Assembly (NCBI GenBank): GCA_043228905.1
Contig: JBHGNT010000013.1
Span: 15,872,001-15,936,000, forward strand
Direction: 5' to 3'
DNA length: 64,000 nucleotides
Source: Azolla caroliniana
Taxonomy: Eukaryota; Plantae; Polypodiophyta
Shown here: positions 19,531 through 58,435 of the stretch, piece after piece
Layout: the number at the start of each line of letters is the position of its first letter
Position numbering within the stretch: position 1 is the stretch's first letter
Notes under the pieces: model-generated
Seen by the model: only the letters and a program-made list of their open reading frames with translations
Told to the model about the DNA's origin: nothing
Database searches by the model: none
Program-made: the position numbers and the translations under genes

Positions 19531-20495
19531 TAGGGGTGGGACAAGAAGAAGGCGATCGGCTACAGATGGATCTGCAAGGTGAAGTATAACGCCGATGGCT
19601 CCATAAATTGCTACAAAGCTCGACTCGTAGCGAAAGGATACACACAAACACATGGAGTCGACTACGAAGAGACATTTGCCTCGGTGGCAAAGATGATGAC
19701 TGTGCAAACCGTGATCGCACTTGTAACGGCGAAAGGGTTGCACCTCCACCAAATGGACGTCAAGAACGCCTTTCTTCAAGGCGAATTAGAAGAGGAGGTG
19801 TACATGGTACAATTGTTGGGAAATCGGTCCCTCCGGATGGGATCCGGTTATGAATGAGGAGATCCGGAAACCGAATTAGATGGACCCGGTGTGAACTGGA
19901 AGTGAAGACATATTTGTAAATATGTTTTGAGTAAGCCTATTGAGGCTATATTTGTAAATAGCCCTAAGTATAAATATGACTTAGGGCAATCACTTTGTAG
20001 TTATGTGAGAAGGTTGTCATATTGTTGTAGTGATAATTGTTGTATAGAGAGAGAGTGAGATACAGAGCTATACTCGGTTGTAACCGCCAGCTGACGAAGA
20101 TACAGAGCTCGACGTCATTACCTCTGAGTCTCTGTTTGTACCTTTTCCTATATAGTGATAGTTTGGAGTTTGTGGGCTCCCGTGTTTTTTCCCTATTAGG
20201 GTTTTTCACGTGAATATTTTGTGTACTCTCTACTTCCCGTTTCTCTGGTTCATTTCCATTTCTGTGACTCAAGACTCAGTTGTGGCCGAGCAATATTCCG
20301 CTGTCAAGTTGTTACGCTCTTCGTGTGTGGAAAGAGGCGGGACCATAGGGGCCTTGAACCAAGGAGAGTGAGAAAGAAGAGAGAGAGAGAGCGCAACTTG
20401 CAGAAACACAGAGGGAGAAAGAGAGAGAACAAGTCTTAATTACAAAATCAATATCGATTACAACCGGCAAGTCGGCAATGAACCCAACTCAGGCG

Positions 20496-20539
<44 letters not shown>

Positions 20540-23500
20540 TGCTCACGCACGCACACAACCCGATTGCACTGTGGAGCCTCTGGTGGAAGCACACGGGCTG
20601 TCCACAAAGCAGAGGCAACTCAGCTCGAAATCCTGCAGAGAACGACGAACGATGGAGGAGAGAGCTCGGTCCTAGTCCGACAACACTTCGTCCTTGCTCC
20701 TTAAAACGCGATATCTTCATCCGCCTTCTTCCTTCCCTTTTATAGGCCGTCGAGGCAGGCCGTTGCACCCTCGTTTTCATCAATTTATTCTCTATCCTTT
20801 CAGACAGAGATACTCTTTGATTTCCTAGACATTCAATGCGTCACATCTAGTCTATTTACACCCATCGTCCTACTCCTAGTTATGTACAAGGTATTAATTG
20901 GCGTGGAAAAGTGTAGGACCGGTTCATGCGCCTTGCTTCGCCGATTCCGCTTCTGGCCGGTTTTCTCCATGACATCCTCCCCCACCAAACTGCGCATCCA
21001 TCGGTATGCGCTGGAGAGGGACAAACACCGGAGAAAACCGGCTCGCGTTCACTCGTCGCTCTCCGAATTATCGGCGTCCCCGAACCGATCGTCGTCGTTA
21101 TCGCTCCCCCGCTCCGGCTCGTCTTCGTACCGCTTCTTGAATGCTTTAATCCACTTCTCGGCTACCGGCACCACCAATCGTGTCCCGTCGAGCTCCGCAA
21201 GATGGTACATGCCGTTGTCGTTCGTGCTCGTCACCGCGTAGTGCCCTAACCATCTCCTCGCAAATTTGCGGGTCGCCTTGTGCTGGTTGTCGAGGCTGCT
21301 GTCGTAAACCAGCACCCAATCACCTTCCTCGATCTTCTTCGGATGTTGCCGGTGTGTCCGGTCGAACCGAGTTTTGTTTCGTTCTCTTTCCGCGCAGCTT
21401 CTCCTGCGCCCGTTCCACGTCTCCGGCCTCCACTCAAGTTGCCGGGTCCGCGCTGCCAACAACTCTTCCTGGCTCATTTTGTCCTTCCAGCCCACTGCGG
21501 CCCACGAAGAAACCGTCCGTTCCACCGGCATGATCGGCTTCTGCCCATACATTAGTTCTGCCGGCATGAACCCCGTTACCGAACTGTGCGTAGTCCAGTC
21601 CGCCCACACCGCATAGGGTAGGAGCCACGACCAGTTCCCGACTTGGCCTCCACACGCCCGTACTAACGGTTTGACGATCGGTCTGTGTTTGCGTTCCACC
21701 TTCCCGTTAGCCTCCGGATTGTACGCCATGGTGAGCGAGAGTTTAACCCTAGTCGGTCAAATAACTCTTCAGCCTCTTGCGCATCTAGTTCTCCGCGGTC
21801 GGCCACGATCTTGCCGACGCACCCGTACCGACGTACCACATCTTCGATTAAACCAACACACGGCCGCAATCGTTTTGTTCTGCAATGCTCGGCCTTCCAC
21901 TTGGTTCGTCAGGTCCTCTTGAGCCAGCACCAGATATCGCGTCTGCCCTACCCCCATCGGCATCGTCACCAGATCCACCATCCACTTGAAGTGGACGGTC
22001 GGAGGGTAGGTCGGGTGAAGCTCGTCTCGATGTCGGACTATGGAGTGCATCTAATAGCTTTCGCAAGTCGTTACGAACCGATGCACGTCCCGGTATAGTC
22101 CCGACCACTAGTACTTCCCCTTCAGCTTCTCGAATGTGGCCCATGTCCCACGGTGTCTGGCCCAAGGACTCTTGTGGTACGCCATAAGTAGCACTTTTTG
22201 CTCGTCCTCCCTCGCAACTACGCGGAGTGGGGTGCCGCTTCGCTTCTTCGGGTGCTTCTATATGCGCCCTTCCCGTAGGAAGAACCGGTACGCCTTCTTC
22301 CGCACTTGACAGGCCTCTTCTCTCGTCCACGCCATGTCTGGCGTCATCGTCCTAGGTACCTCCCGATTCGAAGCCACTCTCCATCGTATTCGCTCTCGTC
22401 GAACTCGTTAAGCGCCGGAGTGCTCCTCGTCCCAGTTGTTACGCCAGCTGATTCGAAGAAGTCCTCGCCGACTTCTTCGTCTTCCGAAACCATGCCGTCC
22501 TCGTCGCTGAACCTCGCCCTCGAAAGCATGTCGGCCATGGCGTTGTCCTTTCCGAAAATGTGTCGCATTTCCGGATTCAGGGACTTGACGTACGCTATCC
22601 ATCAGAGCATTGCCAGGTCCGGCGTCGTGCATCCGGAAACCATACCAAGAATCGGCAGGCAATTTGTCTTAATGATTACTTTCGTCCTGATCAGATAGTT
22701 TTTGTTGGCCTTAACTACCGAAATGATACCCCATAGCTCGCGCTTAACTTGGGCGTATCCTTGCTGCCGCTCACTCAATACCTTCGCCCCGAACCGGATC
22801 GGGAACCGTATGCCATTGTTGTCCTCCTGATTGATCACCCACCCGATCCCGGTAGGGCTCGTGTCCACCATCATGTAAATGGGGACTTCCTTGCGATAAA
22901 CCGCTTTTCGGAGAGGCAGTGCCGCGGTGAGCGCCTCCTTCAGTCTTTGGACCGACTTCGTGTGCTCGTCTCTCCACTCAAATTTACGCCCTTTCTTCAA
23001 TAGCCCGTAGAGCGGTTCTGCGACATGCGCGTAGTGCAGAATCCAGATGTGGTAGAACACGCACGCACCCAAGAATCTGCGGACCTCCGTAACCGACCCA
23101 CAGTCGTCCTTCATCACAGAGATGGCTTCTACCTTCGCCGGGGACGATTTCCGGCCATAGGGCCCCGCATAGGTGTCCGACTACCAGGATCTCCGTCTGC
23201 CCGAATGCTGATTTCTCTCCGGAGAAGGTGAGCTGCGCGCTCTCGAGCCTCTGCAACACCTTATCGCAGTCGTTGATGTGGTTCACGACGAACCTTTGTC
23301 ATCCGTCCAGCCCGACCGTTTCGTCTGTATCCTCCATCGGACACCCTTTTATCAGTACGTCGTCTAGGAACGACATAGTGATGTCCGGGATGTAGTCCCT
23401 CAACACCTTGTTCATTGCGTTCACCATGTGTGCCACCAAATTCGTTCCTCCTTGCGGTAGGGTACACATACGCACCAAGCCGAGAGGAGTCGGCATTGTT

Positions 23501-24260
23501 GTGATGTCCTTGCTCTCTACGGCTAGTTGGAACTGATCATACCCTGAGTACAGATCCCCGACCGAGTAGATCGACCTCCCTACGAAGGCCTCCGCGAACT
23601 CATCAATGGTCAGTTCGATACCTGCGTTTCGAATGGTCACCTTGTTGACCGGCTGCAGGTCTTGTATGAAGCGCAATGTGCCGTTCTTCTTTGGCATTGT
23701 AAACCACCTATTCGAATATGGGGCACTCGACGGTTCGAGGATGCCCATCTCCACCTTCTGTTTCAGTAGCTCCATCAGCTTCAGGATGTGAGCTCTGGGT
23801 ACCGGAATCGGTTTGAGATTCCATGGCACATGCAGTACCGTATAGATCACCATTGGCTCGACGATTGTCGGGTCTACACACCCGATCTCCTCCGGCGAGA
23901 ATGTGAAGGCCTTCTCATGCCTTCCGAGCATCCTTCGAAACTGGTCCTCCTCCTCCGGCAGTAGAAAGCCACCCCCACCAACCTTGAGCTCCCGTGGCAT
24001 TATGTTGGTGAACCGGTGCCCTATGCCGGCTAGACTCCGTAAACTTGGGTCCGACGTGACCCCTTTTATCCGCTCTCCGCTGCCCTCCGGCAAGGGTGCC
24101 GCAACTGGCCTCACCTTCCAGTCCACAGTCTTATACTTCATGTCCACGCAGGCCATTCGATCCGACCCGATCCTCTCCCCGAAGTTCGCGATGACTTCGT
24201 ACATTCCCATCGAGCTAACCGGAACGGTCCGGTCTTTGCTAAGGCCTTCATCGACTACCT

Positions 24261-24530
24261 ATGGTAATTCTCAATTGGACTGTGAAGTCGAAACAAGGAG
24301 TGCGGACGGTAGGCAATCGGTGGGTGCAATATGTAAGATGTAGAGTTATAGAGAAAAGGTTTAGGGTTTAGGAATTAGGGTTTGAGTTTTGGTTTAGGTT
24401 TAGGTTTAGGGTTAGGGTTTAGTGTTTGTTTTTGGCTTAGGGTTTAGAGGGTAAAAGGGTTTATGATTAAGTGCAAGAGGGGATAAAATGAAAAGAAACA
24501 CCAAGAATAATTTGAGCACACCCAAATCAT
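24261..24530. repeat. Foreign AT-rich insert containing degenerate TTTAGGG telomere-type repeats
   Basis: Absent at the equivalent position of elements A and B. TTTAGGGTTTAGG...TTAGGGTTAGGGTTTAG at ~24359-24465. Confidence 0.8.
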
Positions 24531-24693
24531 TTAAAAGAGACCGCCTCCACGACGCCGCTAATCTCTTCGTCGAGGGAGAGGACTCCACACGCCCTAAGCC
24601 GTCTCTCCGCCCGCTTCCTCTCCTGGCTACTGATGCCAGTTAACGTACAACCTCCGTTTTCAGAGAGCCAAAATTTCCTACCTATAATACATG

Positions 24694-24760
24694 TGTGGGG
24701 TTCTTCCGGGGTGTTCGGACTATCTCGACCGCACGCCTTGATAGTCCTCTCTAAAAATCC
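24694..24760 (-). promoter_or_regulatory. Predicted -1 ribosomal frameshift signal (GGATTTT plus pseudoknot), element G
   Basis: Minus strand GGATTTT-TAGAGA, stem GGACTATC...GATAGTCC, loop GTGCGGT opposite ACCCCAC. Confidence 0.7.
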
Positions 24761-24983
24761 CCTCGGCTGTCGCTGCCGAGGGTCTCGCGGTTCCGCTCGT
24801 GGTTGGGTCGCACTGTCATGAATTGGACGGAATGCCGACCGTCTTGGCTCTTGACGCGCGCATACGCCGAACCGTTGTCCAGTACTTTCGTCTCCATGCG
24901 TGCTGCCATAATGTATGGTTCGCCGAGAATTATCGGGTGCGAGGAAGTCTCTTGCATGAAGAAATGCTGATCTATCTCGACGT

Positions 24984-25632
24984 TGTCGCGTTACTACGCG
25001 CGTGCGTGGAGAAACGAGGCGGGACCACCGGGGTCTTGAACCGAGGAGCAGGTGATAGAAGGGGAAAGAGAAAGAGAGAGACGCCCGGTTACGTATGAGC
25101 AAAGAAACACAGGGGCACGGCCCGTCAACGCAGAAGATGCGAATGGACACAGAGACAGAGAGTAAGAAATGTGTATATTAACGAATGACAAATAAACAAC
25201 AGAGCACGCGAGCGGTTACAACCGAACAGGCCGGCGAACAGATGCCGATGCCTGTTCGTCTGCGCACGAAAAGGGGATAGGATGGAGGTGCTGCCGGAAG
25301 CACACGGGCGTTCCTCGAAGCAGCGCGAGCCTCCTGAAAACCTGTAGAGAAGAGCAATAGAGAACAAATAGAGGAGAAGCGTTCGGTTATGGTTCGACAA
25401 CACTTCGTCCTCCTCAATGCGCAATCACTCTCTCCCCGCGTCTCCCTCTCTTTTATAGCTTCGAGAAGGGAGCCGTTTCCCTCATTAACTTCCTACCTAC
25501 TGAATCTAACTACCTAGGATATACCTTTGTACCTAATTCTTTATTATATACATTAAAGGGCGCGCACGCGTGAAGAGCCGGTTCACGCGCTCTATGCATC
25601 GATTGCACTAAGGGATGGTTTTCTTCACGACA
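24984..25632 (-). mobile_element. Solo LTR F of the tRNA-Trp gypsy family, inserted in the protease of element G
   Basis: TGTCG...TTCTTCACGACA ends, similar to the element B LTR. 4-bp TSD ACGT (24980-24983, 25633-25636); the host frame VKIGDV|EIDQHFF is restored on removal. Confidence 0.92.
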
Positions 25633-25765
25633 ACGTCGCCGATCTTCACGCGTACGTTCGGGCACGCACCATGCAACTCCTCTATCGCGATCGTCGCCGC
25701 GCGTATCTTCCACCCGTGCTTGGTGTTGATCGGCCATTTCCCCTTTTTATAGAAGTCCATGGACA

Positions 25766-26060
25766 TCAAGTTGATCTCCGAATCGTGGTCTACCAATGCC
25801 ACCACCAGCTCTTGGACGTTGCGGATCTGAATACGAATAGGGGTTTCCGTAGTGGCCCTAGCCCAATGCGGCTTCGCGTAGTGGCTTTCCGCCAACTCAT
25901 CCTCTAGGGCCAACTCATCAAGTTGATCTCCGAATCGTGGTCTACCAATGCCACCACCGGCTCTTGGACGTTGTGGATCCGAATAGGGGTTTCCGTAGTG
26001 GCCCTAGCCCAATGCGGCTTTGCGTAGTGGCTTTCCGCCAACTCATCCTCTAGGGCCGCG
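25766..26060. repeat. ~150-bp tandem duplication in the gag-protease region of element G
   Basis: ALEDELAESHYAKPHWARATTETPIRI...VVALVDHDSEINLM is encoded twice. Confidence 0.85.
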
Positions 26061-29000
26061 TCTTCTAAGTGCATCGTCCGCACTTCCACATGCCTCTCCA
26101 GTTCTGGCTCCGTCGAGAGCCTCTTCCGCTTCACTAAGTCCACGATGGAGTCATGGAACTCCTTGTTGGCGATTCCCAACACCTCCCGTAACGACAACTC
26201 GACCTTGCTATCGAGAATTCTCTCTTCCAGGACCTTCTGTAGGTCCGTTGTTCGTTCGATTTCGGTGCTCAGCCGGAAACCGGCCTCCTTCTTCTTCTCC
26301 GGTGCGTTGGCATTGATGGCCTCATTCAGTCTTTCCCGTGCACTTGTCTTCTACCAGAACCTCGTAGTTTTGGCATGCGGCTGCCACGTAGCCAGTCTTT
26401 TCTTCCACCAGGTCGTCCCATCTGGTGACCTCCTGGATCCGCTGTTCCACGCGGTCTGCCTCTTCCTTCTTCAGCCGTACTCCAGAGAGACCCTCTAGCA
26501 CCAGTGGCCAGAATCCGGAGTCCGTCGCTTTCCGGGCCTCATCACCCCCGACCCGGATTCCCGCCGACGCCGAGTAGTTAACGGCCTCTGCATGTCGTGT
26601 CGCGGCCTCTTCCATCAACCGCTTCATTCCGCCGGGCCCCGTATTCAATTCTAGGGCTTTCTGGGTCTCGCTCGCGTGCACCTGCCCGTTCTAGAGGTAC
26701 ACCACATTGGTCCTGAGTGCCTCGGCGAAATCTGCGCATTCTTTCTGGATGTGGCAGACCGCGTCACACCACATGCACCGCTACCCTGCTGGCGGCCTTC
26801 GGTCACGAGGCTATTCGCCGCTGTCCCTCCGGGTTTGTGCAATTTGGAGATCTCGCACCATTTGCGACAACTCTTCTAGAGCCGCGCCTCCGGAGGGATC
26901 TTTGACCACTCTGCTCGGGGCTGAGCCCGTCTCAAGCCAAATCCGAGTTTCTTCCTTCCTAGCCGGTACCGACACCGACTCCTCGAGCTCCCACGTCGGG
27001 ACCGGCCTTGCCGCCCACGAGCCCTCATCGCTCCACTCGCGCAGCTTGTCGAAACGACCGCAGACCCTCCTTACCATGGCCCAGTCTGCCGTGAGCCTCT
27101 CATTTGTTTCCAATAGGAGACCCACCTTCTCCCGGTTCATGGCGTCCACCGACTTGACGAATAGTAGTACCCGGCTTGTGTCGAGCATGGTCCGGTCCAA
27201 CATTGATAGCCGTGCGAACCGTTTCTCGAACTCCTGGAGGAGCGCTGACGCGTTCCTCCCCTTCCCAGGGTTCTCAACCCATGCCATGAAGTCTCGCTTC
27301 GACAACCGAAGCGAGTCATCGAACCCATACATCTCGAGGAGCCGTAGCTCGAACTCCTCCCAAGTCTGGCATCCAGCTAGCACCTCGAGCACCTCTGCGT
27401 GGATGCTCTGCGTCACCACCCGAGGGAATCCGGATAGCCGCCTGTCCGCCGAGATATCCCTCATGATCATTTTGGCTTGGTAGGCCTCCAAGTAGCTCGT
27501 GGCATTCTTCCCACTGAATCGATCTATGGTGCCGACGATCGACTCAATGGCCCTGTCGAGGGCACCCATTCCCTTGCGAGCGCTCACTAGCCGGTCGACG
27601 GTTACGACCATAGCTTCAACAAGCTCGGATCCCCTCATCCTTCACTCCTTTGCCACTTGTTTCACGTCGGTTTCACCAAATATGTCGAGTTGTTACGCTC
27701 TTTGCGTGTGGAAAGAGGTGGGACTGCAGGGGCCTTGAACCAAGGAGTGTGAGAAAGAAGAGAGAGAGAGAGCTCAGCTTGCAGAAACACAGAGGGAGAA
27801 AGAGAGAGAACAAGTCTTAATTACAAAATCAATATCGATTACAAACCGGCAAGCCGGCAACGGACCCAACTTAGGCGAACACACACACACACATGATGCT
27901 CACGCACGCACACAACCCAACTGCACTATGGAGCCTCTACCGGAAGCACACGGGCTGTCCACGAAGTAGAGGCAACTCAACCTGAAATCCTGTAGAGAAC
28001 GACAAACGATGGAGGAGAGAGCTCGGTCCCAGTCCGACAACATTTTGTCCTCGCTCCCTAAAACGCTATATCTTCATCCACCTTCTTCCTTCCCTTTTAT
28101 AGGGTGTCGAGGCAGGCCGTTGCACCCTCCTTTTCATCAATTTATTCTTTGTCCTTTCGGATAGAGATACTCTTTGATTTCCTAGACATTCGATGCGTCA
28201 CATCTAGTCTATTTACACCCATCGTCCTACTCCTAGTTATGTACAAGGTATTAATTGGCGTGGAAAAGTGTAGGACTGGTTCATGCGCCCTGCTTCGCCG
28301 ATTCCGCTTCTGGCCGGTTTTCTTCACGACACCGCGCTATTCTTCACAACAACCACCCGACTTCGAATCCAACATTCATTTGAAAGCTGTATGCCAACTC
28401 AAGAAGCCTCTCTACGGCCTCAGGCAAGCACCGTGTGCTTGGCTTTCGAAGATTACGCAATATCTTCATCAAATCGGCTTTCGAATGTCAAAATATGACA
28501 ACTCCCTCTACGTACGAAACGACTCTAAAAGCTCGATTGTCATCATCTTATACGTGGATGATCTAGTCATTGGAGGAGAAAGTTTAGTTGACATCAACAA
28601 GGTGAAATCCCTCCTCTCCAACAAATTCGAGATGACGGACATGAAGGAACTTCATTACTTCCTTGGAATCGAAGTAATTTGGATTCCGACCGTCATTATG
28701 ATCTCTCAACGACACTACATCCTCAACTTGTTATACAAGTTCGGGATGGCTGAGTGCAAATTTGTGGCAACCCCTCTCAATCGAAACCTCAAACTAGATG
28801 CCGACTCCGGCACATATGAGTGCGAGCCTCATCTATCTCACGATCACGCGACCCGATCTCAACTATCTGGTTTGCCTCCTTAGCCAATTCATGCAAACTC
28901 CGCGAAATATCCATTTTGATTGCGATAAGCGAGTATTACGATACGTGAGTGGTACAATGGATTATGACATCCTCTACGCATCGGCCACACCAATTCAACT

Positions 29001-33343: not shown

Positions 33344-35067
33344 GTAAGTGGGACGATGGACTTTGGCATCCTCTACAAATCGGTCACACTGATTCGACTC
33401 AAAGGGTACATAGATGTCGGCTGGGCTGGCTATAAAGCCTATAGAAGATCAACATCGAGATTCTTCTTCTCCCTCGGCAGTGGAGCCATATTCTGGAGGA
33501 GTAAGAAGCAGATAATAGTCACACTATCGAGGACAGAAGCCGAATATAGGGGCGTGGCTGTTTGGCTCAAGAGAATATTGAAGGATCTAGGCATTCCCAT
33601 CAAGGATTCGATTCTCCTGTATTGCGACAACATGAACAACATCCACCTGGCCTGCAACCTAATATTCCACGCTCAGACTAAGCACATTGAGGTGCACTAT
33701 CGTTTTATCTGAGAACGTTGTCGAGGTTATCCTCGCGGATGCGTAGAAGTCGGGCAGGACCACGGGGGTCTCGAACCAAGGAATCGAGAAAATGAGGTGG
33801 GAGGAGTTTGAGGACCGCGTAGGTCTTGAGACCACGGGAAAACAGGTAAGGCTAGCGAACGAGAGAGGGTAAAAGAGTCGTGCGAAGACGTAAACACGGG
33901 CAAGACACTGAGAACAACGTTTGTTAGGTAGAGAAGGTTTCTATTAAACAACACAGGTGCATGGTGCTGTGGGTGATTACAACCGGATCAGAGCCGACGA
34001 TGGAGCGTAGAGCTTGGCAATAGCCGAACATGAAGGTACGTGGGCACGCTGAAGGTCGATCCCCTGGTCGGGAGTACTCGGGCATCTGACGCGTGCAGGG
34101 GGAAGCGCCTTCCGATGATCAGTCCTTACACTCCTCTCTGTATCTCCTCTCCTCAAAAAAAATGGCATCCCGAAGACAGTCGAAGGTCGCCCCCTTTATA
34201 GCACAAGGAGCGACCGTTACAAGCATTCATGACCCGTCGCTTTCCCTTCCTAGATTCTCTCCCCTCGTAACTCTCCCTACATATGCGATGTCTATTTCTT
34301 CTTTAATGCCCTAACTACCTAGTACCCCTCCGTATACTCATGCGTAGTACTTTCCTATTTAATTCTCTTGAGGCGTGCATTCGCGTAAACTGGTGTTCCT
34401 GCGCGTTTCACCTTGTTTCTACCTATGGCCCGGAATCTTCACAACATCCACCCCCACTAAACTGCACATCCTCCGGTATGTGCCGGATGGTGAATTTAGT
34501 GGAGGATTCCGGGCCATCGGTTACTCACCCTCCTCTCTTGGTCTGGTTCTTTCGGCTCCCGGTTCCGGTTCCTCCTCGTTTTGTCTCTTGAAGGCTTTTA
34601 TCCACTTCCTGGCCACCGGAGTTGTTATTCGCATCCGTCGAGCTCCGCGAGATGATACGTAGAGTTTTCGTTGACACTATTTACCACGTACAACCCGAAC
34701 CATCGCTTCGCGAACTTGCGCGTAGACCTATGCTGGTTGTTGAGGCTGCTGTTGTAAACTAACACCCAGTCGCCTTCCTCGATCTTCCTTGGCCGGAGCT
34801 TGTGCGTTCGATTGAACCGGGCTTTGTTTCGGATCCTTGCTTCTCTCACCCTCGTCGTGGCTCGTTCCACGACTTCCGGTTTTCGCTCGAGTTGCCGGAT
34901 TCGTGCTGCTAGCAACTCTTCTCTGCTGATTTTGCTAGCCCAATCGATCGCTGCCCACGAGGCGATCGTTCACTCTACTAGCATGATGGGTTTCTGTCCG
35001 TACATTAGTTCCGCCGGCATGTACCCTGTCACTGAACTATGGGTAGTCCTGTCTGCCCATAACGCGT

Positions 35068-35597
35068 TGTCGTGAAGATTTCCGGCTACGGTGTGAAATC
35101 GGGGTGGAATGGGCAAGTCGGTGGTGTGCAACATGTGCACATGTATACTAGGAAATGGTGTATAGAAATAAGAGGGGAAATTTTATCCCACATTGTAAGG
35201 TTCCTCCCTCCTTGGGCTATAAAAGGAAGGGAGGGGTCACTTATGAAGGGATTGCCTATTTTGCGTATGAGAGGTATACCACTTAGTCTAGAGTTCTTAC
35301 CGTTTTAGGGTTAGGGTTTCGTTTAGGGTTTCCTTATTCATCCTCAGTTAGGGTTTTCTCATAGTCGTTTGGTGCGGCCCATGCGGCCACCATTGTTGTA
35401 ATCATTCGTTTGTTTTAATATAACTTGTTGAGTATCTTGCCTCCGCCGATCTCTCCTTCTATGTCATGGACTTATTCTTTCCTCTTCTCCTCTTGAGCTA
35501 AGCTTCCATATCATATCTTATTCTTTCTCCTCTACTCCCTAGTCCGAGACCCCCGTGGTCCTGCCCCTTCTACACGCACACTCATAACAACGCGACA
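35068..35597 (+). mobile_element. Solo LTR E with tRNA-Trp gypsy family-type ends, inserted in the integrase of element A
   Basis: TGTCGTGAAGA...CGCGACA ends; 4-bp TSD GCGT (35064-35067, 35598-35601). Host LLPYA|LWADR is restored on removal. The LTR interior is unlike the other members and contains TAGGGTTT motifs. Confidence 0.88.
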
Positions 35598-38432: not shown

Positions 38433-38502
38433 AGGTGTGGGGAGTTTCCTGGCGGTCCGGACTATCGTGGCCCCACACCTTGATAGCCCTATCTAAAAAT
38501 CC
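38433..38502 (-). promoter_or_regulatory. Predicted -1 ribosomal frameshift signal (GGATTTT plus pseudoknot), element A
   Basis: Minus strand GGATTTT-TAGATA, stem 1 GGGCTATC...GATAGTCC, stem 2 AGGTGTGGGG with CCCCACACCT. Confidence 0.75.
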
Positions 38503-39089
38503 GGCTTATCATCATTTCCGAGGGTGTCCCGGTTTCGTTCGTGGTTCTTCCGAACGGTAAAACATTGGACGGAGTGATGGACGTCCTAACTTTTTATCCT
38601 CACATAGGCTGAACCATTGTCCAACACTTTCGTCTCCATTCTAGCCACCGTAATGTATGGTTCCCCGAGGTTGAGCGAGTGGGAGGACGTTTCTTTCAAA
38701 AAAAAGTGTTGGTTTATGTCGACGTCTCCGACACTCACCCTGACGTTCGGGCAGGCCCCGTGCAACTCTTCCGTGACTCTTGTTGCTGCGCGTATCTTCC
38801 ACCCGTGTTTGGTGTTGATCGGCCAAATTCCCTTTTTGTAGAAGTCCATGGACATTAGGTTAATTTCTGACCCGTGGTCGATTAATGCCACCACTGGTTC
38901 CTTGACATTCCCGATTCGAACTGGGGTCTTTGTAGTAGCTCTTGCCCAGTGCGGCTTGGTGTAATGGCTTTCTGCGAGCTCGTCTTTCGTGGCAATCTCG
39001 TCGAGGAGTGCCGCCCTCACCTCAATCGGCTTCTCGGGCTCCAGTTCCTTTGTGAGACGCTTTCTCTTCACGAGGTCCACGATGCTGTT

Positions 39090-39187
39090 GTGGAACTCCC
39101 TTCTTGCTATACCGAGCACTTCCCTAAGCGTGAGTGCTATCGTGGAACTCCCTTCTTACTATACCAAGCACTTCCCTAAGCGTGAGT
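39090..39187. repeat. ~52-bp tandem duplication in gag of element A
   Basis: GTGGAACTCCCTTCTT.CTATACC.AGCACTTCCCTAAGCGTGAGT occurs twice. Confidence 0.85.
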
Positions 39188-41513
39188 TCTATGCGACTGT
39201 CGAGAACTCGCTCCTCTAGAACCTTTTGTAGGTTCGTTGTTTTCTCGATTTCCGAGCTTATGCGGAAGCTCGGAATCCTACCCTTTTCCTTCTCTTGGGA
39301 CCCGGTCGGAGCGGCATCATTCTTTTTGGGCGTGCTTCGGGTGTTATACCTCCTCGAAGGGCCCGCTCCCCCGGTTTTCCCCGCTCGTCTTTCGTCGATC
39401 AAGGCCTCGTAGTTCCTACACGTGGCTTCCACAAAGCCGATGCTTTCTTCAACGGGGTCGCTCCACCCGATAACTTCACGCACACGTTCTTCTGCGCGCT
39501 CCGCTTCTCCATTCTGCAAACCTTCCTCTAGCCAAGGTCTCAAGAATAGCCGGCTAAAACCCAGGGTTTGAATCAGGTTTGGCCGCCTTTTCCCCTACTC
39601 GGATGCCGGCTGAAGTCGAATAGTGGATGGCTTCGACGTGCCAGGCCGCAGCCTCTTCCATTAGCCTCTTCATGCCACCTCGTCCGAAATTCGTGTCGAG
39701 CAGTCTTCGCGTGTCGCTCGCATGTACCCAACCATTCGAAAGGTAGACTACATTACTCCTGAGTGCTTCTTCGAAGTCAGCGCATTCTCTCCGGGCATGT
39801 CCGGTGGCATCGCACCATACGCACCTCTGATTGGCCGGCGGTCGCCAGTCGTACGACTGGACCTCATCGCTTCAGCGGGCTTGGGCAATCTGGAGGTCGC
39901 GTACCATCCTTGTTAGTTCTTCTAGCCCTGCGCCACTCACAGGTCCCATGACTATGTTCGTCTGGGTTGGGCCTAGCTCGAGCCACCTCCTTGTTTCTTC
40001 CATTCGGGTCGGCATCGGTTTGGCCCTGATTTCGACAGCCGGTCTGACCGACGAGGATCCCTTTTCTCTCCAGTCTCGGCGTTTGTCAATCCTGTTGCAT
40101 ACTTCTTTGACGGTCGCCCAGTCAGTCGTGAGACCTTAGTTGGTTTCCAGAAGAAGACCCATGCTTTCCCGGATGCGCGAATCGAAAGATGTTACGAAAA
40201 ATAAGACTTTGCTTATTTCGAGCACGGTTCGGTCCAATCTAGAGAGTCGCGCGAACCATGACTCGAACTCTTGGAGGAGCGCTGAAGCGTTCTGACCCTT
40301 ATCTAGGTTGTTGACCTAGTCCATAAAATCCTTTCTTGATAGCCGGAGTGAGTCATCATAGTTGTACCTCTCGAGAACTTCCTCTACGAATTCCACCCAA
40401 TCGCGACAAACTGCTTTTATCTCGACCATCTCCGTATGGATGTGTGGTATTACGACCCGAGGAAACCCCACTAGCCGTCTATCTTCGGGTATGTTCCTCA
40501 TCTGCATTTCCGATTGGTAAGCCTCCAAGTAACTTGTGGCGTCCTTTCCGCCGAACCGGCCTATCCTACCGATCGTTGCTTCTATGGCCCGGTCGAGGAC
40601 ACTCGCGCCCTCACGAGCACTAACCAGGCGGTCTACGGCCACCGCCATTACTTCTGGAAGTTCGCTTCCTCTCATCTCCAGATTTCTTTGCCGCCCTTTT
40701 TCACGTCGGGTTCACCAATTATGTCAAGGTTATCCTCGCGGTGTCGTGAAGAAAACCGTCCACAAGCGGAATCGGTGCACCGGAGCGTAGGAACCGGCTC
40801 TTCATGCACGTTGTCGAGGTTTTCCTCGTGGATGCGTGGAATGAGGCGGAACCTCGGGGGTCCTGTACCAAAGAGCAAGAGAGGAAGGAGAAGAGACCCT
40901 CTACGTGCGAGCGTAGATCCACAGGGACACGGCCCTTCGACGCAAAGACGCAAGTGGGACAGCGACATAGAAAGACACGAATGTATGTATGTATTAACAA
41001 AGACAAACAACAAGAACACGAAGACAACAAAACCACGAAGTCGGTTACAACCGAACAGGCCGGCGAACAGATGCCGATGCCTGTTCGTAAACGCACAGAA
41101 AGACAGGAGCAGGTTGGAGGTGCTGCCGGAAGCTCTCGGGCATTCCTCAGAGCAGCGCGAACCTCTCGAAACCTGCACAGAATGAAGCTATGGATTTTGC
41201 GAACCAGAGAGAGAGAGAGACCCTTCGCACGCAAACCGATAGCACTTCGTCCTCGACTCTCCGCGATCCCCCCCCCTTCTCGTCTCCCTCCTTTTTATAG
41301 GCAAGGAAGGAGCCGTTTCCCCTTTACTTCCTACCCACTAAATCTACCCGCCTAGGATCTTCTATGGACAACATTCGAGAAGAGTCGGTTCCTACGCTCC
41401 GGTGCACCGATTCCGCTTGTGGACGGTTTTCTTCACAACATCTGCCCCCACCTAACCGCGCATCCACCGGCATGCGCCAAATTGAGTCGGGACGGAGAAA
41501 ACTGGTACAACCT

Positions 41514-44500
41514 TCATTCCCCGCCCGTCGGTTCTTCCTCGGTTTCGGATCGTTCGTCGTCGCGGTCCAGGCCAACCGGATCCGGCTCGTCGTCGTGACG
41601 CTTCTTGAACGCTTTGATCCGCTTCCCAGCTACCGGTATCGCCATTCTCGTGCCGTCGAGCTCCGCCAGATGGTACGTCCCGTTGTCGTTGGCGCTTTGT
41701 ACCACGTAAGGCCCGAACCACCTTCTTGCGAACTTCCGTGTCGCTCGGTGCTGGTTGTCAAGGCTGCTGTCGTAGACTAGCACCCAGTCGCCTTCCTCGA
41801 TCTTCTTCGGTCGGAGCCGGTGCGTTCGGTCGAACCGGGCTTTGTTCCTCATCCTTGCTTCCCGAAGCTTTTCTACAGCCTGCTCCACGTCCTCCGGTCT
41901 TCGCTCGAGCTGTCGTATACGCACCGCCAGCAGCTCCTCCCAGCTCATCTCGTCTCTCCAGTCCACGGTTGCCCACGAGGAGATCGTACGTTCCATCGGC
42001 ATGACCGGCTTCTGCCCAAACATGAGTTCTGCCGGTATGAATCCGGTTACCGAACTGTGCGTAGTTCGGTCCGCCCACAACGCGTAAGGCAACAGCTGCG
42101 GCCAGTTCCCGACTTGACCTCCGCATGGCCGAACTAACGCCTTGACGATCGGTCCGTGTCCGCGCTCCACCTTCCCATTCGCCTCCGGATTGTACGTAGT
42201 GGTAAGCGAGAGCTTGACTCCTAGCCGGTCGAACAACTCCTCGGCCTCTTCGGCATCCAACTCCCCGCGATCGGCCACGATCTTCCCGACGCACCCGTAT
42301 CGGCATATCACGTCCTCGATCAGGAACCGACATACGGCCGCGGTCGTTTTGTTCTGAAGGGCTCGGCCTTCCACCTGGTTTGTCAGATCTTCCCGAGCCA
42401 GGACTAGATACCGCATCTGTCTGACGCCCATCGGCATCGGCACCAGATCTACCATCCATTTGAAGTGGATGGTCGGAGGGTATGTAGGGTAAAGCTCGTC
42501 CCAATGCCGGACTATGGAGTGCATCTGACAGCTCTCGCAAGTTGTCACGAACCGATGCACGTCCCGGTACAGTCCCGACCACCAGTACTTCCCCTTTATC
42601 TTCTCGAACGTGGCCCACGTTCCACGGTGTCCGGCCTAAGGGCTGTCGTGGTAGCCCGTCAGCAGCTCCTCCTGTTCTTCCTTCATCGCCACCATTCAGA
42701 GCGGGACGCCGTTCCTCTTCTTCGGGTGCTTCCATAAGTATCCGTCCCGGAGAAAGAATCGGTATGCTTTCTTCCGGATCCGGTTTGCCTCGTCCCTCGT
42801 CCATGACGCATCCGGCGTCATCGTCCTCAAAAACCCACTGATCTGGAGCCGTCGTACTTGCTCTCGTCGAAGTCGTTAAGTGCCGGAGTGCTCGTCCCAT
42901 CGGCCATTACGTACGTTGCCTCGAAGAAGTCCACGCCGACTTCTTCGTCCTCCGAAACCATGCCGCCCTCGTCATCAAACCTCGCCCTCGAAAGCATGTC
43001 GGCCATGGCGTTGTCTTTTCCGGAAATGTGTCGTATTTCCGGGTCCAGGGACTTTATGTACGCTATCCACCTGAGCATCACCAGGTCCGGCGTCGCGCAT
43101 CCGGAAACCATGCCGAGAATCGGCAGGCAATCCGTCTCGATAACCACTTCTGTCCCGATCAAGTAGTCTTTGTCAGCCTTTACTGCCGAAACGATACCCC
43201 AGAGTTCGCGTTTAACCTGGACGTACCCTCGCTATCGTTCACTGAGAACCTTCGCGCCGAATCGGATCGGGAACCGAATGCCGTCCCCGTCTTCTTGGTT
43301 GACGACCCATCCGATCGGACTCGTATCCACCGTTATGTATACCGGGGTACCCTTCTCGTAGACAGCCTTCCAGAGCGCCGGTGCCGCCACAAGAGCTTCC
43401 TTTAGCTTCCGGACCGACTCCGTGTGCTCGTCCCTCCACTCGAATCTTTGCCCTTTCTTCAGCAGCCCGTATAGCGGCTCCGCAACGTGGGCGTAATGCG
43501 GGATCCATATGTGGTAGAACGCGCATGCCCCCAAGAACCTCCGAACTTCCGTAACCGAGCTACAGTCGGTCTTCATCGCGGAAATGGCTTCTACCTTTGC
43601 CGGAGACGGCTTCCGGCCATATGGTCCACATAGGTGTCTGACCACCAGGATTTCCGATTGCCCGAAGGCCGATTTCTCCCCGGAGAAGGTGAGCCTCGCA
43701 TCCTCTAGCCTTTGTAGCACCTTCTCGCAGTCGCCGATGTGTGCTGCCACGAATCGCCGCATCCGTCCGGCCCGAGTGTCTCGTCCTTCTCTTCCACCGG
43801 GCACCCCTTTATCGGGATGTCGTCTAGAAACGGCATGGTGATGTCCGGGATACAATCCCTCAGTACCTTGTTCATTGCATTCACCATGTGGGCCACCAAG
43901 TTGGTCCCTCCTTGTGGCAGGGTACACATTCGCACTAGGCCGAGGGGAGTTCGCATCGTCGTAATGTCTCTACTCTCCACGGCTAGCTGGAACTGGTCGT
44001 ACCCCGAGTATAGATCACCGACCGAGTAAATCGACCTTCCGGCGAAGGCCTCCACGAACTCGTCTATGGTCGGTCCGATTCCTGCATTCCGAATGGTCAC
44101 TCTGTTGACCGGCTGCAGGTCCTGAATGAAGCGCAATGTTCCGTTTTTCTTTGGTACGGTAAACCATCGGTTTGAGTATGGCGCGCTCGACGGTTCGAGA
44201 ATACCCATATCGACTTTCTGCCTCAGTAGCTCCATCAACTCCGGGATGTGAGCTCTTGGTACCAGAATCGGCTTGAGATTCCACGGCACATGCAGTACCG
44301 TGAATATCACCATCGGCTCCACGATTGTCAGGTCTACGCACCCGATCTCTTCCGGCGAGAATGCGAAGGCTTTCCCATGCCTTCCAAGCATTCTCCGAAA
44401 CCGGTCTTCCTCCGCCGGCAGTAGGAACCCGCCCCCACCGATCTTGAGCTCCCGGAGCGTCCCGTTGGTGAAGGTGTGTCCTATGCAGGCCGGATCTCGT

Positions 44501-44970
44501 AAACTGGGGTCCGACGCCACCCCTCTGATTCGGGACTCGTTGCCCTCCGGCAAGGGTGCCGCGACCGGCCTTACCTTCCGGTCCACAGTCTTGTACTTCG
44601 TGCTAACTCGGGCCGTCCGATCCGACCCGAGCCCCCGACTGAAGTTCGCGATGACTTCGTACATCTCTTCGGAACATACCGGTATCGTCCGGTCTTCGTT
44701 AAGGTCTTCTCCGGCTACCTTCCTCAGCATTCCCAAGGTGTCGTCGAAGGAGACCGCCTCCACGGCTCCACTGATTTCCTCGTCCGGGCCGAGAACTCCG
44801 CACGCTCGAAGTCGCTCTTCCGCCCTTGTCTTGTCTCGGTCGACGATGCCGACCATCATACACCCTCCGTTGTTGGAGAAGCAAAACTTCCTACCTATCG
44901 TACAGTCGTGGGGTCCTTTCCAAGTGTCCGGGCTGTCTCGGCCCCACGCCTTGGCAGCCCTCTCTAAAAA
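41514..44970 (-). pseudogene. pol: pol (RT-RNase H-integrase) of element B, frameshifted
   Basis: DLYSGYDQ, LPQGGTN, PFLDD; RH ITVDTS...ETDCLP...NAMADMLSR; IN CESCQ, WMVDL, IVADRG, NGKVER, FGPY. No chromodomain. Confidence 0.88.
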
Positions 44971-44973
44971 TCC
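44907..44973 (-). promoter_or_regulatory. Predicted -1 ribosomal frameshift signal (GGATTTT plus pseudoknot), element B
   Basis: Minus strand GGATTTT-TAGAGA, stem 1 GGGCTG...CAGCCC, stem 2 CGTGGGG with CCCCACG. Confidence 0.75.
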
Positions 44974-47079
44974 TCCCGGTTCTCGCCACCGAGGGATTCG
45001 CGGTTTCGCTCGTGGTTCGGCCGCACCGTCAGAAATTGGACCGAATGGCGCCCGTCCTGGCTTTTGACCCTTGCGTAGGCCGAACCGTTGTCCAGCACCT
45101 TGGTCTCCATTCGCGCCGCCGTGATGTATGGTTCCCCTAATATGACCGGGTGCGAGGATGTCTCCTGTACGAAGAAGTGCTGGTCAATCTTGACGTCGCC
45201 GATCTTGACTCGCACGTTCGGGCAGGCCCCGTGCAGTTCCTCGGTGGCGCGCGTCGCCGCCCGTATCTTCCACCCGTGCTTGGTGTTGATCGGCCACTTT
45301 CCCTTCTTATAGAAGTCCATTGACATCAGGTTTATTTCCGAACCGTGGTCCACCAATGCCACCACCGGTTCCTGAACATATCCGATCTTCACCGGGGTCT
45401 CCGTGGTCGCTCGGGCCCAGTGTGGCCTCGAATAGTGGCTCTCCGCCCACTTGTCTTCCATCGCCATGTTGTCGATGTGCGTCGTCTGCACCTCCACCGG
45501 TCTTTCCGGTTCCGTCTCCGTCGACAGCCTCTTCCGTTTCACTAGGTCCACAATGGAGTCGTGGAACTCCTTCTTGGCAATCCCGTAATGACAACTCCAC
45601 TTTGCTGTCGAGGATCCGTTCCTCTAGGACCTTCCGTAGGTCCGTAGTCCTTTCTATTTCCGTCCCCAGTCGATATCCGCCCTTCCTGGGGTTATCTTGC
45701 GAGCTGGGCCCGCCGGCATCGTTCCGTCGTTGCCCGAATCAGGTCTCGTACCGTTGTGAAGGCCCGGCCGCTCCAGCTTTCCCCACTCGTTTGTCTTCTA
45801 CCAGAGCCTCGTAGTTCTGGCAGGCGGCTTCTACGAAGCCCGTCTTCTCCTTGACCGGATCGCTCCACCCGGTTATTTCCCGGACCCGTCTCTCAGCGCG
45901 GTCCGTTTCATCCTTCTTCAACCGTGCGCCGGCAAGACCTCCCAACATTGCCGACCAGAATCCGTCTTTGCCCTCCTTTCGGGCCTCGCTGCCCCCGACC
46001 CGAATGCCGGCCGACGCCGAGTGGTGGATGGCCTCCACGTGTCGGGCCGCTGCCTCTTCCATCAGTCTCTTCATACCTCCTCGTCCGTCGTTTCGGTTTA
46101 GGGCCCTTCTGGTGTCGCCGGCGTGCACCCGGCCTTCCCACAGGTACACCACCCGGTTCCTCAACGCTTCTTCGAAATCGCCGCAGTCCTTCCGGATGTG
46201 ACCGACCTCGTCGCACCACATGCACCTATTCCCTACTGCCGGCCGTCGGTCACGAGCCGGTTCGCCGCCTTCCCTTCGAGTCTGGGCGATCTGGAGATCC
46301 TTTATCGCTCGCGTCAACTCCTCCAGCGCTGCTCCTCCGGACGAGCCACTGACCATGCCGGTCGAAGCTGGGCCGGTTTCGAGCCATTCCTGGGTTTCTT
46401 CCCTTCGCCCTTGCGGTGCCGGTTCAAGCCTCCTTGCTGTGATAGACCCCGCACCGGCCGCTCCGTTATCAGCCCATTCTCGCCGTTTGTCGAAACGGCC
46501 ACAGACTCTCTTAACCGCTGCCCAGTCGGTCGTCAGCCCGTCTTCGGTTTCCAGCAAGGAGCCACCTTGATCCCAGTCCCGCTCGTCCACCGACTTGACG
46601 AACAGTAGGACCCAACTCGTATCTAGAATGGTTCGGTCAAGCGCCGAAAGGCGCGCAAAGCGTTCTTCGAACTCCCAGAGGAGTGCCGACGCATTTCTTC
46701 CCTTGCCGGGGGACTCCACCCATTCCATGAAGTCTCGTTTCGAAAGTCGGAGCGCGTCGTCCAGCCCGTATTTTTCTAGGAGTCGACCTTCGAACTCCTC
46801 CCAGGTACGGCTCTCCGCCCGCACCTCGACCACCTCCGCATGGATGCTCAGCATCGCCACTCGAGGGAACCCGGCAAGACGCCTCTCTTCCGGAATGTCC
46901 CGCATCAGCATTTCTGCCCCGTAGGACGCCAAATACTTCGTGGCAGCCTTTCCGCTGAACCGGCCGATCGTACCGACGACCGTCTCAATGGCTCTGTCGA
47001 GGGCGCCGGAGCCCTCGCGTACGCTCAGTATCCGATCCACGGCCGAAGCCATGGCCTCCGCAAGATCCGACCCTTTCAT
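44964..47079 (-). pseudogene. gag: gag-protease ORF1 of element B (premature stop at 45739, small frameshifting deletion)
   Basis: ATG at 47079 follows the PBS. Zinc knuckle CMWCDEVGHIRKDC; protease ALVDHGSEINLM...VILGEPY; ends REDF* at 44964. Confidence 0.85.
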
Positions 47080-47101
47080 CTTCTGCTCTTCTGCCGCCTC
47101 T

Positions 47102-47119
47102 TTCACGTCGGGTTCACCA
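47102..47119 (-). promoter_or_regulatory. Primer-binding site complementary to the tRNA-Trp 3' end (also at ~40700-40717 and 27661-27678)
   Basis: TGGTGAACCCGACGTGAA lies 4 nt after the LTR. Plant cytosolic tRNA-Trp ends TTCACGTCGGGTTCA-CCA (from recall). Confidence 0.8.
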
Positions 47120-49989
47120 AAGATGTCGAGGTTTTCCTCGCGGATGCGTGGAATGAGGCGGAACCTCGGGGGTCCTGTACCAAAGAGCAAGAGAGGAAGG
47201 AGAAGAGACCCTCTACGTGCGAGCGTAGATCCACAGGGACACGGCCCTTCGACGCAAAGATGCAAGTGGGACAGGGACACAGAAAGACACGAATGTATGT
47301 ATGTATTAACAAAGACAAACAACAAGAACACGAAGACAACAAAACCACGAAGTCGGTTACAACCGAACAGGCCGGCGAACAGATGCCGATGCCTGTTCGT
47401 AAATGCACAGAAAGACAGGAGCAGGTTGGAGGTGCTGCCGGAAGCACTCGGGCATTCCTCAGAGCAGCGCGAGCCTCCCGAAACCTGCACAGAATGAAGC
47501 TATGGATTTTGCGAACCAGAGAGAGAGAGAGACCCTTCGCACGCAAACCGACAGCACTTCGTCCTCGACTCTCCGCGATCCCCCCCCTTCTCGTCTCCCT
47601 CCTTTTTATAGGCAAGGAAGGAGCCGTTTCCCCTTTACTTCCTACCCACTAAATCTACCCGCCTAGGATCTTCTATGGACAACATTCGAGAAGAGTCGGT
47701 TCCTACGCTCCGGTGCACCGATTCCGCTTGTGGATGGTTTTCTTCACGACAACGTGCGTCTTATGTAGTGCATAAGAGAGAATTAGGTACATAGAAGATC
47801 CTAGGTAGGTAGATTCGGTAGGTAGGAAGTTAATGGGAAACGGCTCCTTTCTTGCCTATAAAAGGAGGGAGACGAGGAGGAGTGGGGGATCGTGGTGAGA
47901 GAGGAAGAAGTGTTGTCGGGTTGTCGGCCGAAGGCTTCTCTCTCTTCCAAACTCCATAGCTTCTTTCTGTGCAGGTTTCGGGAGGCTCGAGCTGCTCTGA
48001 GGAATGCCCGAGTGCTTCCGGCAGCACCACCAACCTACTCCTTTCTTTCTGTGCGTTTATGAACAAGCATCAGCATATGTTCGCCGGCCTGTTCGGTTGT
48101 AACCGACTTCGTGCTTGTTGTTGTTTGTCTCCGTTAATATATAGATACATACCTTAGTGTCTCTCTGTGTTGGTTTCCCGCTCGCGTCTTCGTGTCGAAG
48201 GGTCGTGTCCCTGTGGATCTACGCTCGCACCTAGTGGGTCTCTTCCTCTCTTGCTATTCGGTACAAGACCCCCGAGGTCCCGCCTCATTCCATGCATCCG
48301 CGAGGAATACCTCGACAGCGGATGCATAGAAGTCGGGCAGGACCACGGGGGTCTCAAACCAAGGAATCGAGAAAACGAGGAGGGAGGAATTTGAGGATTG
48401 CGTAGGTCTTGAGACCACGGGAAAACAAGTAAGGCTAGCGAACGAGAGAGGGTAAGAGAGTCGTGCGAAGACGCAAACACGAGCAAGACATTGAGAACAA
48501 CGTTTGTTTGGTAGAGAAGGTTTCTATTAAACAACACAGGTGCACGGTGTTGTGGGTGATTACAACCGGATCAGAGCCGGTGATGGAGTGTAGAGCTTGG
48601 CAATAGCCGGACACGAAGGTACGTGGGCACGCTGAAGGTCGATCCCCTGGGTTGGGAGTACTCGGGCGTCTGACGCGTGCAGGGGGAAGCGCCTTCCGAT
48701 GATCAATCCTTACACTCCTCTCTTTATCTCCTCTCCTCAAAAAAAATGGCATCCCGAAGATAGTTGAAGGTTGCCTCCTTTATAGCACAAGGAACGACCG
48801 TTACAAGCATTCATGACCCGTCGCTTTCCCTTCCTAGATTCTCTCCCCTCCTAACTCTCCCTACATATGCAATGTCTATTTCTTCTTTAATGCCCTAACT
48901 ACCTAGTACCCCTCCGTATACTCATGCCTAGTACTTTCCCTATTTAATTCTCTCGAGGCGTGCATTCGCGTAAACTGGTGTTCCTGCGCGTTTCACCTTG
49001 TTTCTACCTATGGCCCGGAATCTTCACGACAACGTGTTCTTGTCAGAGATGTTGACCTGCAACACATTAGCACGAACTTGCAGACGACTGACATCTTCAT
49101 AAAGGCCGTAGGGACCGACAAGTTGTGACAGTTCACGACGAACCTAGGTCTCTTGATTGCCGACCAGCCAAGCTTGAGGGGGAGTATGGAGCCGTCTAAC
49201 ACGATCTCGACCGAAGACTAGTGAACAATCCAAAGCCAGCCATTCGAAGCCGAAGCCGAAGACCAATGACCAATCCAAAGCTGACCATCCGAAGCCGAAG
49301 TTGGTATTGACTCGAAGCCGACCTGAAGACCAGTCGGAACGAACCATCCGGCGACCGGAAGTTGCGTTTGAAGGGGCGTGTTGAGAATCAAACTCAACTT
49401 CCCTAGTGTGGGAACACACCTTAGTATACCCAAGTGTGTGAACACCCCACCTCCTAGCATAGTAACTAGTATGTCATAGAACTTTAAGGTTCTATGACAC
49501 ATATTTGGTGTAGTTAAGTCTCCACCTCTCTATAGTAAGTGTTGGTTTTAGAAAGAGAATATAGAGTGAAGGTGGAAACATAAGCACTTTTCTCCTTCTT
49601 CTTGTAACTGTTGGTTTTATTGTTGGTTAATTCTTGTTCTTATAATACAATTTTCTATTTTTTTGTATAACATGTGTTCTCTATCTCTCTTACACAACAT
49701 ATACACACACCTTTCGTCGCAAAGAATCATATCCGATTCTTTACAACTTCCAATCGGCAACTTTACCTACGAGACACCAGACAATGTCCCCATGGATGTA
49801 TACTTCAATCCATATTTGGGAAGGATTGAAGGGTTACCACATGCAAGGTGGCGTTGGTCCTCTCTTTTGACAAATCACCTCATTTGTGGTAAAAGTGATT
49901 CTTGTTCATTACTGTTGGGAGACAGGTCCCTCCGGATGGGAAGGGATAAGAACAGTGCTGACGAACAAACTCGGCCGAGGCCGAAACGG

Positions 49990-58272: not shown

Positions 58273-58344
58273 CGAGCGAAGGAGTGCGAGTGAAGCAGTC
58301 AACTCGACTTCTTCTATTATGAGAGGGTAAATAGTCGAGGTTGA

Positions 58345-58435
58345 TGTTGGGAAGAGACAAGGCCGTGTCGATGCGGAAGATCAAGAAGCATTCGATTAGG
58401 GTTGAGTACCTGCGTATGACAGTTTCTGAGATCGT

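What the first reader, a model, noticed from the sequence alone, without database searches (positions are those of the whole stretch)
20298..49035. A Ty3/gypsy family whose six insertions all sit on a CpG with 4-bp TSDs: candidate CpG-directed integration system
Seen: six insertions with TGTCG...CGACA-type ends have 4-bp TSDs: CCGC (G), ACGT (F), ACGT (A), GCGT (E), GCGG (C), ACGT (B). In element orientation these read GCGG, ACGT, ACGT, GCGT, GCGG, ACGT, i.e. RCGK with CG always central. The copia TSDs in the same window (TCGGT, TTAAC, ACAAC, ATTAC, GTTGA) are 5 bp with no consensus. Four of the six insertions landed in CpG-rich members of their own family, two in copia elements, and none in the AT-rich gene region. 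Established: plant LTR elements usually make 5-bp TSDs with weak sequence preference, and heterochromatin targeting in chromoviruses is attributed to a chromodomain, which these integrases lack. Inference: even if 10% of positions offered a central CG, 6/6 would occur about once in 10^6. The integrase may therefore read CpG (possibly methyl-CpG) directly, steering copies into young, CpG-rich TE clusters and away from genes.
Basis: partly seen in the sequence, partly recalled or inferred. Interest (0 to 1): 0.85.

Follow-up and report, generated by a model that had tools for sequence, protein, structure and literature searches.

The report
Phygy-like retrotransposons inserting at CpG
Six nested plant retrotransposon insertions here each sit exactly on a CG dinucleotide with a 4-base duplication, a real preference that was already described in 2019 for the moss Phygy lineage, to which these elements likely belong.

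Summary
All six insertions have exact 4-bp duplications with central CG, and none matches at 3 or 5-7 bp (chance about 5e-8 on local background). In related metagenome contigs, 12 of 15 hand-curated one-sided junctions show CG at the same position. The other 3 show TG or CA, the decay products of methyl-CG.

It is not new. Neumann et al. 2019 (REXdb) describe Phygy, a non-chromoviral Ty3/gypsy clade of the moss Physcomitrella, with 4-bp NCGN duplications in 100% of 186 elements, a tRNA-Trp primer site and no extra domain. These elements fit those traits. No Phygy sequence could be fetched for a tree, so I call them Phygy-like.

The related junctions lie in CpG-poor flanks.

Likely mechanism: the integrase selects CG at the sharply bent centre of a 4-bp staggered target. 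Whether methylation matters is untested; my searches found no study of it.

The parts
20302..28331 (-). Element G, Phygy-like Ty3/gypsy; 7377 bp without nested F; LTRs 20302-20974 and 27683-28331 (92.8% alike); TSD CCGC at 20298-20301 and 28332-28335; inserted in a copia solo LTR
24984..25632 (-). Solo LTR F inside G; TSD ACGT at 24980-24983 and 25633-25636
33719..49031 (-). Element A; 7199 bp without nested E and C/B; 3' LTR 33719-34446, 5' LTR split by C (40722-40741 and 48322-49031), 95.2% alike; TSD ACGT at 33715-33718 and 49032-49035; inserted in a copia RNase H region
35068..35597 (+). Solo LTR E inside A's integrase region; TSD GCGT at 35064-35067 and 35598-35601
40742..48317 (+). Solo LTR C (632 bp: 40742-40811 and 47756-48317) inside A's 5' LTR, split by B; TSD GCGG at 40738-40741 and 48318-48321
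40812..47751 (-). Element B, 6940 bp; LTRs 40812-41440 and 47124-47751 (98.3% alike); TSD ACGT at 40808-40811 and 47752-47755; gag-PR-RT-RH-INT order, pol spread over several frames
41514..42635 (-). Integrase frame of B: H2C2 zinc finger, DDE core with D-R-G-E after the second Asp, SH3-like C-terminal domain, acidic tail; no chromodomain
47103..47119 (-). Primer binding site of B (same site in A at 40701-40717; one mismatch in G at 27662-27678); match to plant tRNA-Trp 3' end is recalled, not tool-verified
   Evidence: 3 matches, 0.02 expected; same site in 32 places in loci L001-L080
19814..28348 (.). Copia solo LTR that hosts G; 5-bp TSD ACAAT/ACAAC

Best explanation
These are several families of a chromodomain-free Ty3/gypsy lineage, likely Phygy or its immediate sister, that insert with a 4-bp duplication centred on CG, and the integrase itself likely makes that choice. 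Shown: 4-bp NCGN duplications, the same position-specific CG in related families, no chromodomain or other reader domain in the integrase, and a fold like foamy-virus and Ty3 integrases. Inferred: a 4-bp stagger kinks the target at its central step, which favours flexible pyrimidine-purine steps as in retroviruses with 4-bp TSDs. Lineage-conserved residues, namely the acidic residue at the position of PFV Ala188 (D-R-G-E/D) and the conserved C-terminal loop S-L-D/E-x-Q-H...K, would narrow that choice from any YR step to CG. Methylation is probably not required. Nesting in TE clusters would follow from CpG supply and from selection against genic insertions.
For: 6 of 6 in the window. Related loci: 8 of 10 junctions NCGN in the strict scan and 12 of 15 after hand additions; the rest are NTGN or NCAN. 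First TSD base is never T and last never A in 21 sites, matching the bias that PMC4422553 reports for 4-bp-TSD retroviruses (passages). Phygy traits: 4 bp, 100% NCGN, tRNA-Trp PBS 81%, no extra domain, coding region filling the interior. Acidic residue at the Ala188-equivalent in 232 of 233 relatives at 50% identity or more; more varied below 50% (equivalence from the PFV alignment). Top fold match is the PFV target capture complex, E 1e-17. Junction flanks in relatives average 3% CG per position, so the choice is local. Ginger1, a gypsy-integrase relative, has CCGG/CCGT/ACGG 4-bp TSDs (PMC2836005).
Against: No named Physcomitrium sequence appeared in the rows shown, so clade membership is untested by tree. 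Element sizes (6.9-7.4 kb) fall just under the Phygy range of 7.66-9.97 kb. The tRNA-Trp assignment is recalled. PFV Ala188 contacts bases outside the TSD, not its centre, so it cannot alone explain the central CG. The place of the C-terminal loop relative to PFV Arg329 is inferred, not aligned. Junctions in related loci are one-sided, so their TSD length is assumed. Four of four nested insertions hit the own lineage where CpG share predicts 0.40 each (about 0.025 jointly), which may point to an added chromatin or locality bias.
Confidence: 0.72

Rival explanations
1. The integrase or a host cofactor prefers methylated CG, so insertions are steered into silenced TE chromatin without a chromodomain.
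For: LTR pairs decay at CG (39 of 294 sites) and CHG (28 of 171) far more than at CHH (12 of 590), so these elements, which host four of the insertions, are methylated. Three of 15 related junctions show the decay form of CG. Four nested hits in the own lineage. A liverwort genome paper reports Phygy domains enriched at predicted centromeres (PMC12885004, passages).
Against: Methylation seen now may postdate insertion. No methyl-reader domain in the integrase. CHG is as methylated as CG, yet the centre is CG. CG-centred or CG-rich 4-bp targets occur in Ginger1 and in the Drosophila ZAM subgroup; that Drosophila lacks CpG methylation is recalled.
Confidence: 0.15
2. A distinct, undescribed lineage that shares the CG target with Phygy by descent from a deeper, fungal-related clade or by convergence.
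For: Sizes lie below the Phygy range. Relatives occur in Riccia, Ceratopteris, Chara and the fungus Smittium, while Phygy was defined as specific to P. patens. DUF4100 in full-length relatives is shared with Smittium elements.
Against: The joint match of 4-bp NCGN, PBS type, no extra domain and compact coding region fits only the Phygy row among the 15 gypsy rows of the REXdb table. REXdb had sampled few non-seed plants and calls size a weak character.
Confidence: 0.1
3. Chance in CpG-rich sequence, or misplaced element ends.
For: The elements have CpG observed/expected of 1.05-1.15, and the window was chosen for the cluster.
Against: P about 5e-8 on local background; ends fixed by LTR pair alignment; 12 of 15 independent junctions elsewhere, binomial P 8e-13 at a generous 6% background.
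Confidence: 0.01

Closest known systems
Phygy clade, non-chromovirus Ty3/gypsy (REXdb; Neumann et al. 2019, PMC6317226)
   Same: 4-bp TSD with NCGN; no chromodomain, aRH or extra ORF seen; coding region fills the interior; PBS likely tRNA-Trp
Ginger1 DNA transposons (Bao et al. 2010, PMC2836005)
   Same: Gypsy-type integrase, TGTNR ends, 4-bp TSD with central CG (CCGG 75%, CCGT/ACGG 24%)
   Different: Cut-and-paste DNA transposons with inverted repeats, in animals; narrower outer bases; extra C-terminal domains
Drosophila errantiviruses, ZAM subgroup (review PMC5408687)
   Same: Gypsy-group integrases with a sequence-specific target (CGCG)
   Different: Centre of CGCG is GC; AGT/AnT ends; env gene; insects
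Prototype foamy virus and other 4-bp-TSD retroviral intasomes (PMC4422553)
   Same: Same fold; 4-bp TSD; pyrimidine-purine centre; T and A disfavoured at first and last TSD base
   Different: Only a weak YR bias, not near-obligatory CG
Selgy and TatI (REXdb)
   Same: Non-chromoviral, 4-bp TSD; TatI has tRNA-Trp PBS
   Different: No TSD sequence preference reported; Selgy uses tRNA-Ala and is about 5 kb; TatI carries an aRH domain

Membership tests
Ty3/gypsy LTR retrotransposon | LTRs with TG...CA ends, PBS, PPT, domain order gag-PR-RT-RH-INT | tested here: met
Phygy | Groups with P. patens Phygy in RT/RH/INT trees | not testable with these tools
   REXdb sequence files too large to read; no named Physcomitrium hit among rows shown. 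The quick tree groups the integrase with unnamed and Riccia rows (SH-aLRT 97), with Ceratopteris next
Phygy | 4-bp TSD | tested here: met
   6 of 6; Phygy 100%
Phygy | NCGN target | tested here: met
   6 of 6 in the window; 12 of 15 in relatives
Phygy | No chromodomain, aRH or extra ORF; coding region spans nearly the whole interior | tested here: met
   No Chromo or second RNase H hit in B's frames or full-length relatives; B's coding frames run about 47079-41514 of an interior 47123-41441. Control: the window's chromovirus does give a Chromo hit
Phygy | tRNA-Trp primer binding site | tested here: inconclusive
   A conserved PBS is shown; its match to plant tRNA-Trp is recalled; attempts to find the tRNA failed
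Phygy | Size 7656-9968 bp (descriptive; the paper calls size a weak character) | tested here: inconclusive
   6940, 7199, 7377 bp: 0.3-0.7 kb under the lower bound
Phygy | Host P. patens (clade described as species-specific) | not testable with these tools
   Host unnamed; kinase homolog search gave nothing
Chromovirus (Tcn1, Galadriel and others) | Chromodomain at integrase C-terminus | tested here: not met
Tat clade (TatI: 4 bp, tRNA-Trp) | Additional aRH domain | tested here: not met
   One RNase H region only in full-length Pol relatives P0124, P0126, P0128, P0174
Ginger1 | Terminal inverted repeats, transposase only, no RT | tested here: not met
   Direct LTRs and RT present

The most novel reading that the evidence does not exclude
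An old lineage spread across bryophytes, ferns, Chara and fungi carries an integrase that reads methyl-CpG directly through its core and C-terminal loop, giving chromodomain-free targeting to silenced DNA: a DNA-methylation-guided integrase.
Probability: 0.12. Interest if true: 0.75.

Novelty: new member of a known kind. Interest (0 to 1): 0.25.

Why it matters
The preference is known, so the window adds little beyond a clean nested example and evidence that it holds across many families 62-91% alike in integrase. What remains open is how a plant integrase reaches near-absolute CG specificity and whether methylation gates it. My five literature searches on the target preference found only the descriptive statement in REXdb and a nesting survey. 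The conserved D-R-G-E motif and C-terminal loop are concrete candidates. If methylation mattered, it would be a new route to heterochromatin targeting.

Tried and rejected
No whole genome is held, so no genome-wide logo.

Laying contigs of five runs gave only soft support. In one search, loose ends stand three letters past an LTR end (10 and 13 contigs at 40739, 8 at 40809) against 24, 20, 15 and 11 at the end itself; only 24 of 103 rows were shown.

An LTR-end pattern scan of prokaryote genomes gave 88 hits, about chance level, not used. Viral contigs hold no relative. Rfam found nothing. tRNA-Trp could not be retrieved. The kinase search did not name the host. The P. patens RLG2 transcript in a supplement was cut at 400 letters and uninformative. 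The Yarrowia paper's passages gave no Ylt1 TSD. Earlier findings: none.

Rows dropped before the junction count. Strict scan: 60 of 67 5' hits were PPT-side, 38 of 43 3' hits were PBS-side, and 2 of the 12 remaining (L033:7143, L042:4680) are one site 127 nt inside an LTR. Loose scan: six minus-strand hits inside integrase coding sequence, one PPT-side hit (L036:6230), one site inside an LTR (L034:534), one PBS cut by a contig end (L035:6371) and the same two internal sites were dropped. Five junctions were added by hand after their flanks were seen, which can bias the count; the strict figure is 8 of 10.

The careful tree did not finish; the quick one was used, with a poorly filled outgroup.

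Rejected: one family; RCGK; 5-6 bp TSD; gene avoidance as a special property.

Full report
Observation. Self-comparison and reading of the window resolve a nest of three full-length elements (G, A, B) and three solo LTRs (F, E, C). All 6 of 6 have identical 4-bp flanks with CG at positions 2-3, and none matches at 3, 5, 6 or 7 bp. The local chance of a central CG is 0.041-0.084 per site, 4.6e-8 jointly. Neighbouring copia elements have 5-bp duplications. LTR pairs are 92.8% (G), 95.2% (A) and 98.3% (B) alike, in keeping with B being the innermost insertion. LTRs of different elements are 71-90% alike, so the preference is shared by at least four families.

Anatomy. Element B carries gag, protease, RT, RNase H and integrase in gypsy order on the minus strand, with pol spread over several frames. 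The integrase has a zinc finger, a DDE core, a weak SH3-like C-terminal domain and an acidic tail. Pfam finds no chromodomain, while the unrelated chromovirus at about 30000-33343 does give one. A 17-base primer site follows each 5' LTR (3 matches, 0.02 expected) and recurs 32 times in related loci. I recall it as complementary to plant tRNA-Trp; no call verified that.

Relatives. Integrase homologs are abundant in unnamed metagenome contigs. Named ones come from Riccia, Ceratopteris, Chara and Smittium (only the best 120 of 272 and 120 of 196 rows were shown, and 20 proteins were looked up for names). A quick tree of 61 rows puts the window's integrase in a group with unnamed and Riccia sequences, with Ceratopteris next. 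The host is therefore probably a non-seed plant, perhaps a bryophyte; this is inference.

Independent test. In the best 80 of 218 related loci I searched for LTR ends with outside flanks. The strict scan left 10 real outer junctions: 8 NCGN, 1 NTGN, 1 NCAN. Five more from looser scans gave 4 NCGN and 1 NCAN, so 12 of 15 in all. The three exceptions are the forms expected from deamination of methyl-CG. One lies in a copia RNase H region at what appears to be the Arg codon of the RYL motif seen in the window's own copia proteins. Over all 21 sites the first base is A 10, C 6, G 5 and the last T 13, G 7, C 1, so the motif is NCGN without T first or A last, not RCGK. The 15 flanks average 3% CG per position; 4 are copia and 1 is the same lineage's LTR. 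These junctions are one-sided, and short-read assembly favours unique flanks.

What is known. Neumann et al. 2019 (PMC6317226; passages, section 9, Additional file 5 whole) state that Phygy elements are the one exception among plant LTR retrotransposons, with an insertion preference for NCGN: 186 elements, 4 bp in 100%, tRNA-Trp 81%, 7656-9968 bp, no extra domain. Jedlicka et al. 2019 (PMC6911290, passages) confirm 4-bp TSDs for Phygy, GC-rich centres in 4-bp TSDs, and frequent nesting of Phygy in Tcn1. Ginger1 has CCGG/CCGT/ACGG targets (PMC2836005, passages). Errantiviruses have TATA, CGCG or ATAT targets (PMC5408687, passages). Retroviruses with 4-bp TSDs favour a flexible YR centre, largely independent of chromatin (PMC4422553, passages). 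PMC12885004, PMC7466625, PMC2864245, PMC5014426 and PMC6839031 were seen as passages (and one supplement part of PMC7466625) and add context only. Searches found no study of the Phygy mechanism; the library lacks most subscription papers.

Mechanism. The model of the integrase is confident (pLDDT 86.8) and matches PFV and Ty3 intasome chains best. The residue aligned to PFV Ala188 is acidic in 232 of 233 relatives at 50% identity or more and more varied beyond; the C-terminal loop before the GPY motif is also strongly conserved. I infer that the 4-bp stagger supplies a YR bias and that these residues narrow it to CG. That step is untested, and Ala188 in PFV touches bases outside the duplication. 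The elements are methylated in the host: transitions between LTR copies fall on 39 of 294 CG, 28 of 171 CHG and 12 of 590 CHH sites (a site counts as CG if either copy has it). That shows the targets in TEs were likely methylated at some time, not that methylation guides insertion.

Targeting claims. The gene region holds 20.5% of the CpGs outside the six insertions, and only G and A are independent of nesting, so their absence there is expected about 63% of the time. Four of four nested hits in the own lineage have about 0.025 chance on CpG share alone, but the window was chosen for this cluster.

Verdict. A real, strong and lineage-wide CpG target preference that is already in print for Phygy. 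These elements are Phygy-like, with membership likely but not shown by a tree. New member of a known kind; interest 0.25.

Noticed in passing
window 50523-54620 (+) and 58865-62968 (-): Two copia elements with single open frames of about 1365 aa; the second has LTRs 99.4% alike (58344-58670, 63584-63908) and its + strand right end also reads CGACA, with a 5-bp TSD.
   Followed up: partly
window about 30020-33343 (+): A 5'-truncated, decayed chromovirus (RT, RH, integrase, SH3, chromodomain) with one LTR, lying between two copia remnants.
   Followed up: partly
window 12245-13614 (+): A two-exon protein kinase-like gene with an acidic insertion in the activation segment; no homolog at E 1e-10 among longer proteins.
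   Followed up: partly
window 24360-24460: Telomere-like (TTTAGG/TTAGGG) degenerate repeat stretch inserted in element G's pol region; a similar short stretch occurs in solo LTR E near 35300.
   Followed up: no
window 56939-58268: Degenerate tandem repeat of roughly 50-bp units just before the second copia element.
   Followed up: no
protein P0233: A distant relative (44% integrase identity) carries a C-terminal PHD finger, as some Ginger1 transposases do; an alternative chromatin reader in this wider clade.
   Followed up: no
L050 333-597: Two insertions of this lineage 260 bp apart in one copia RNase H region.
   Followed up: partly
window 20302-49031: The LTR ends themselves carry CpG (TGTCG...CGACA) and have decayed to TGTCA or TGTTG in several copies.
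   Followed up: partly
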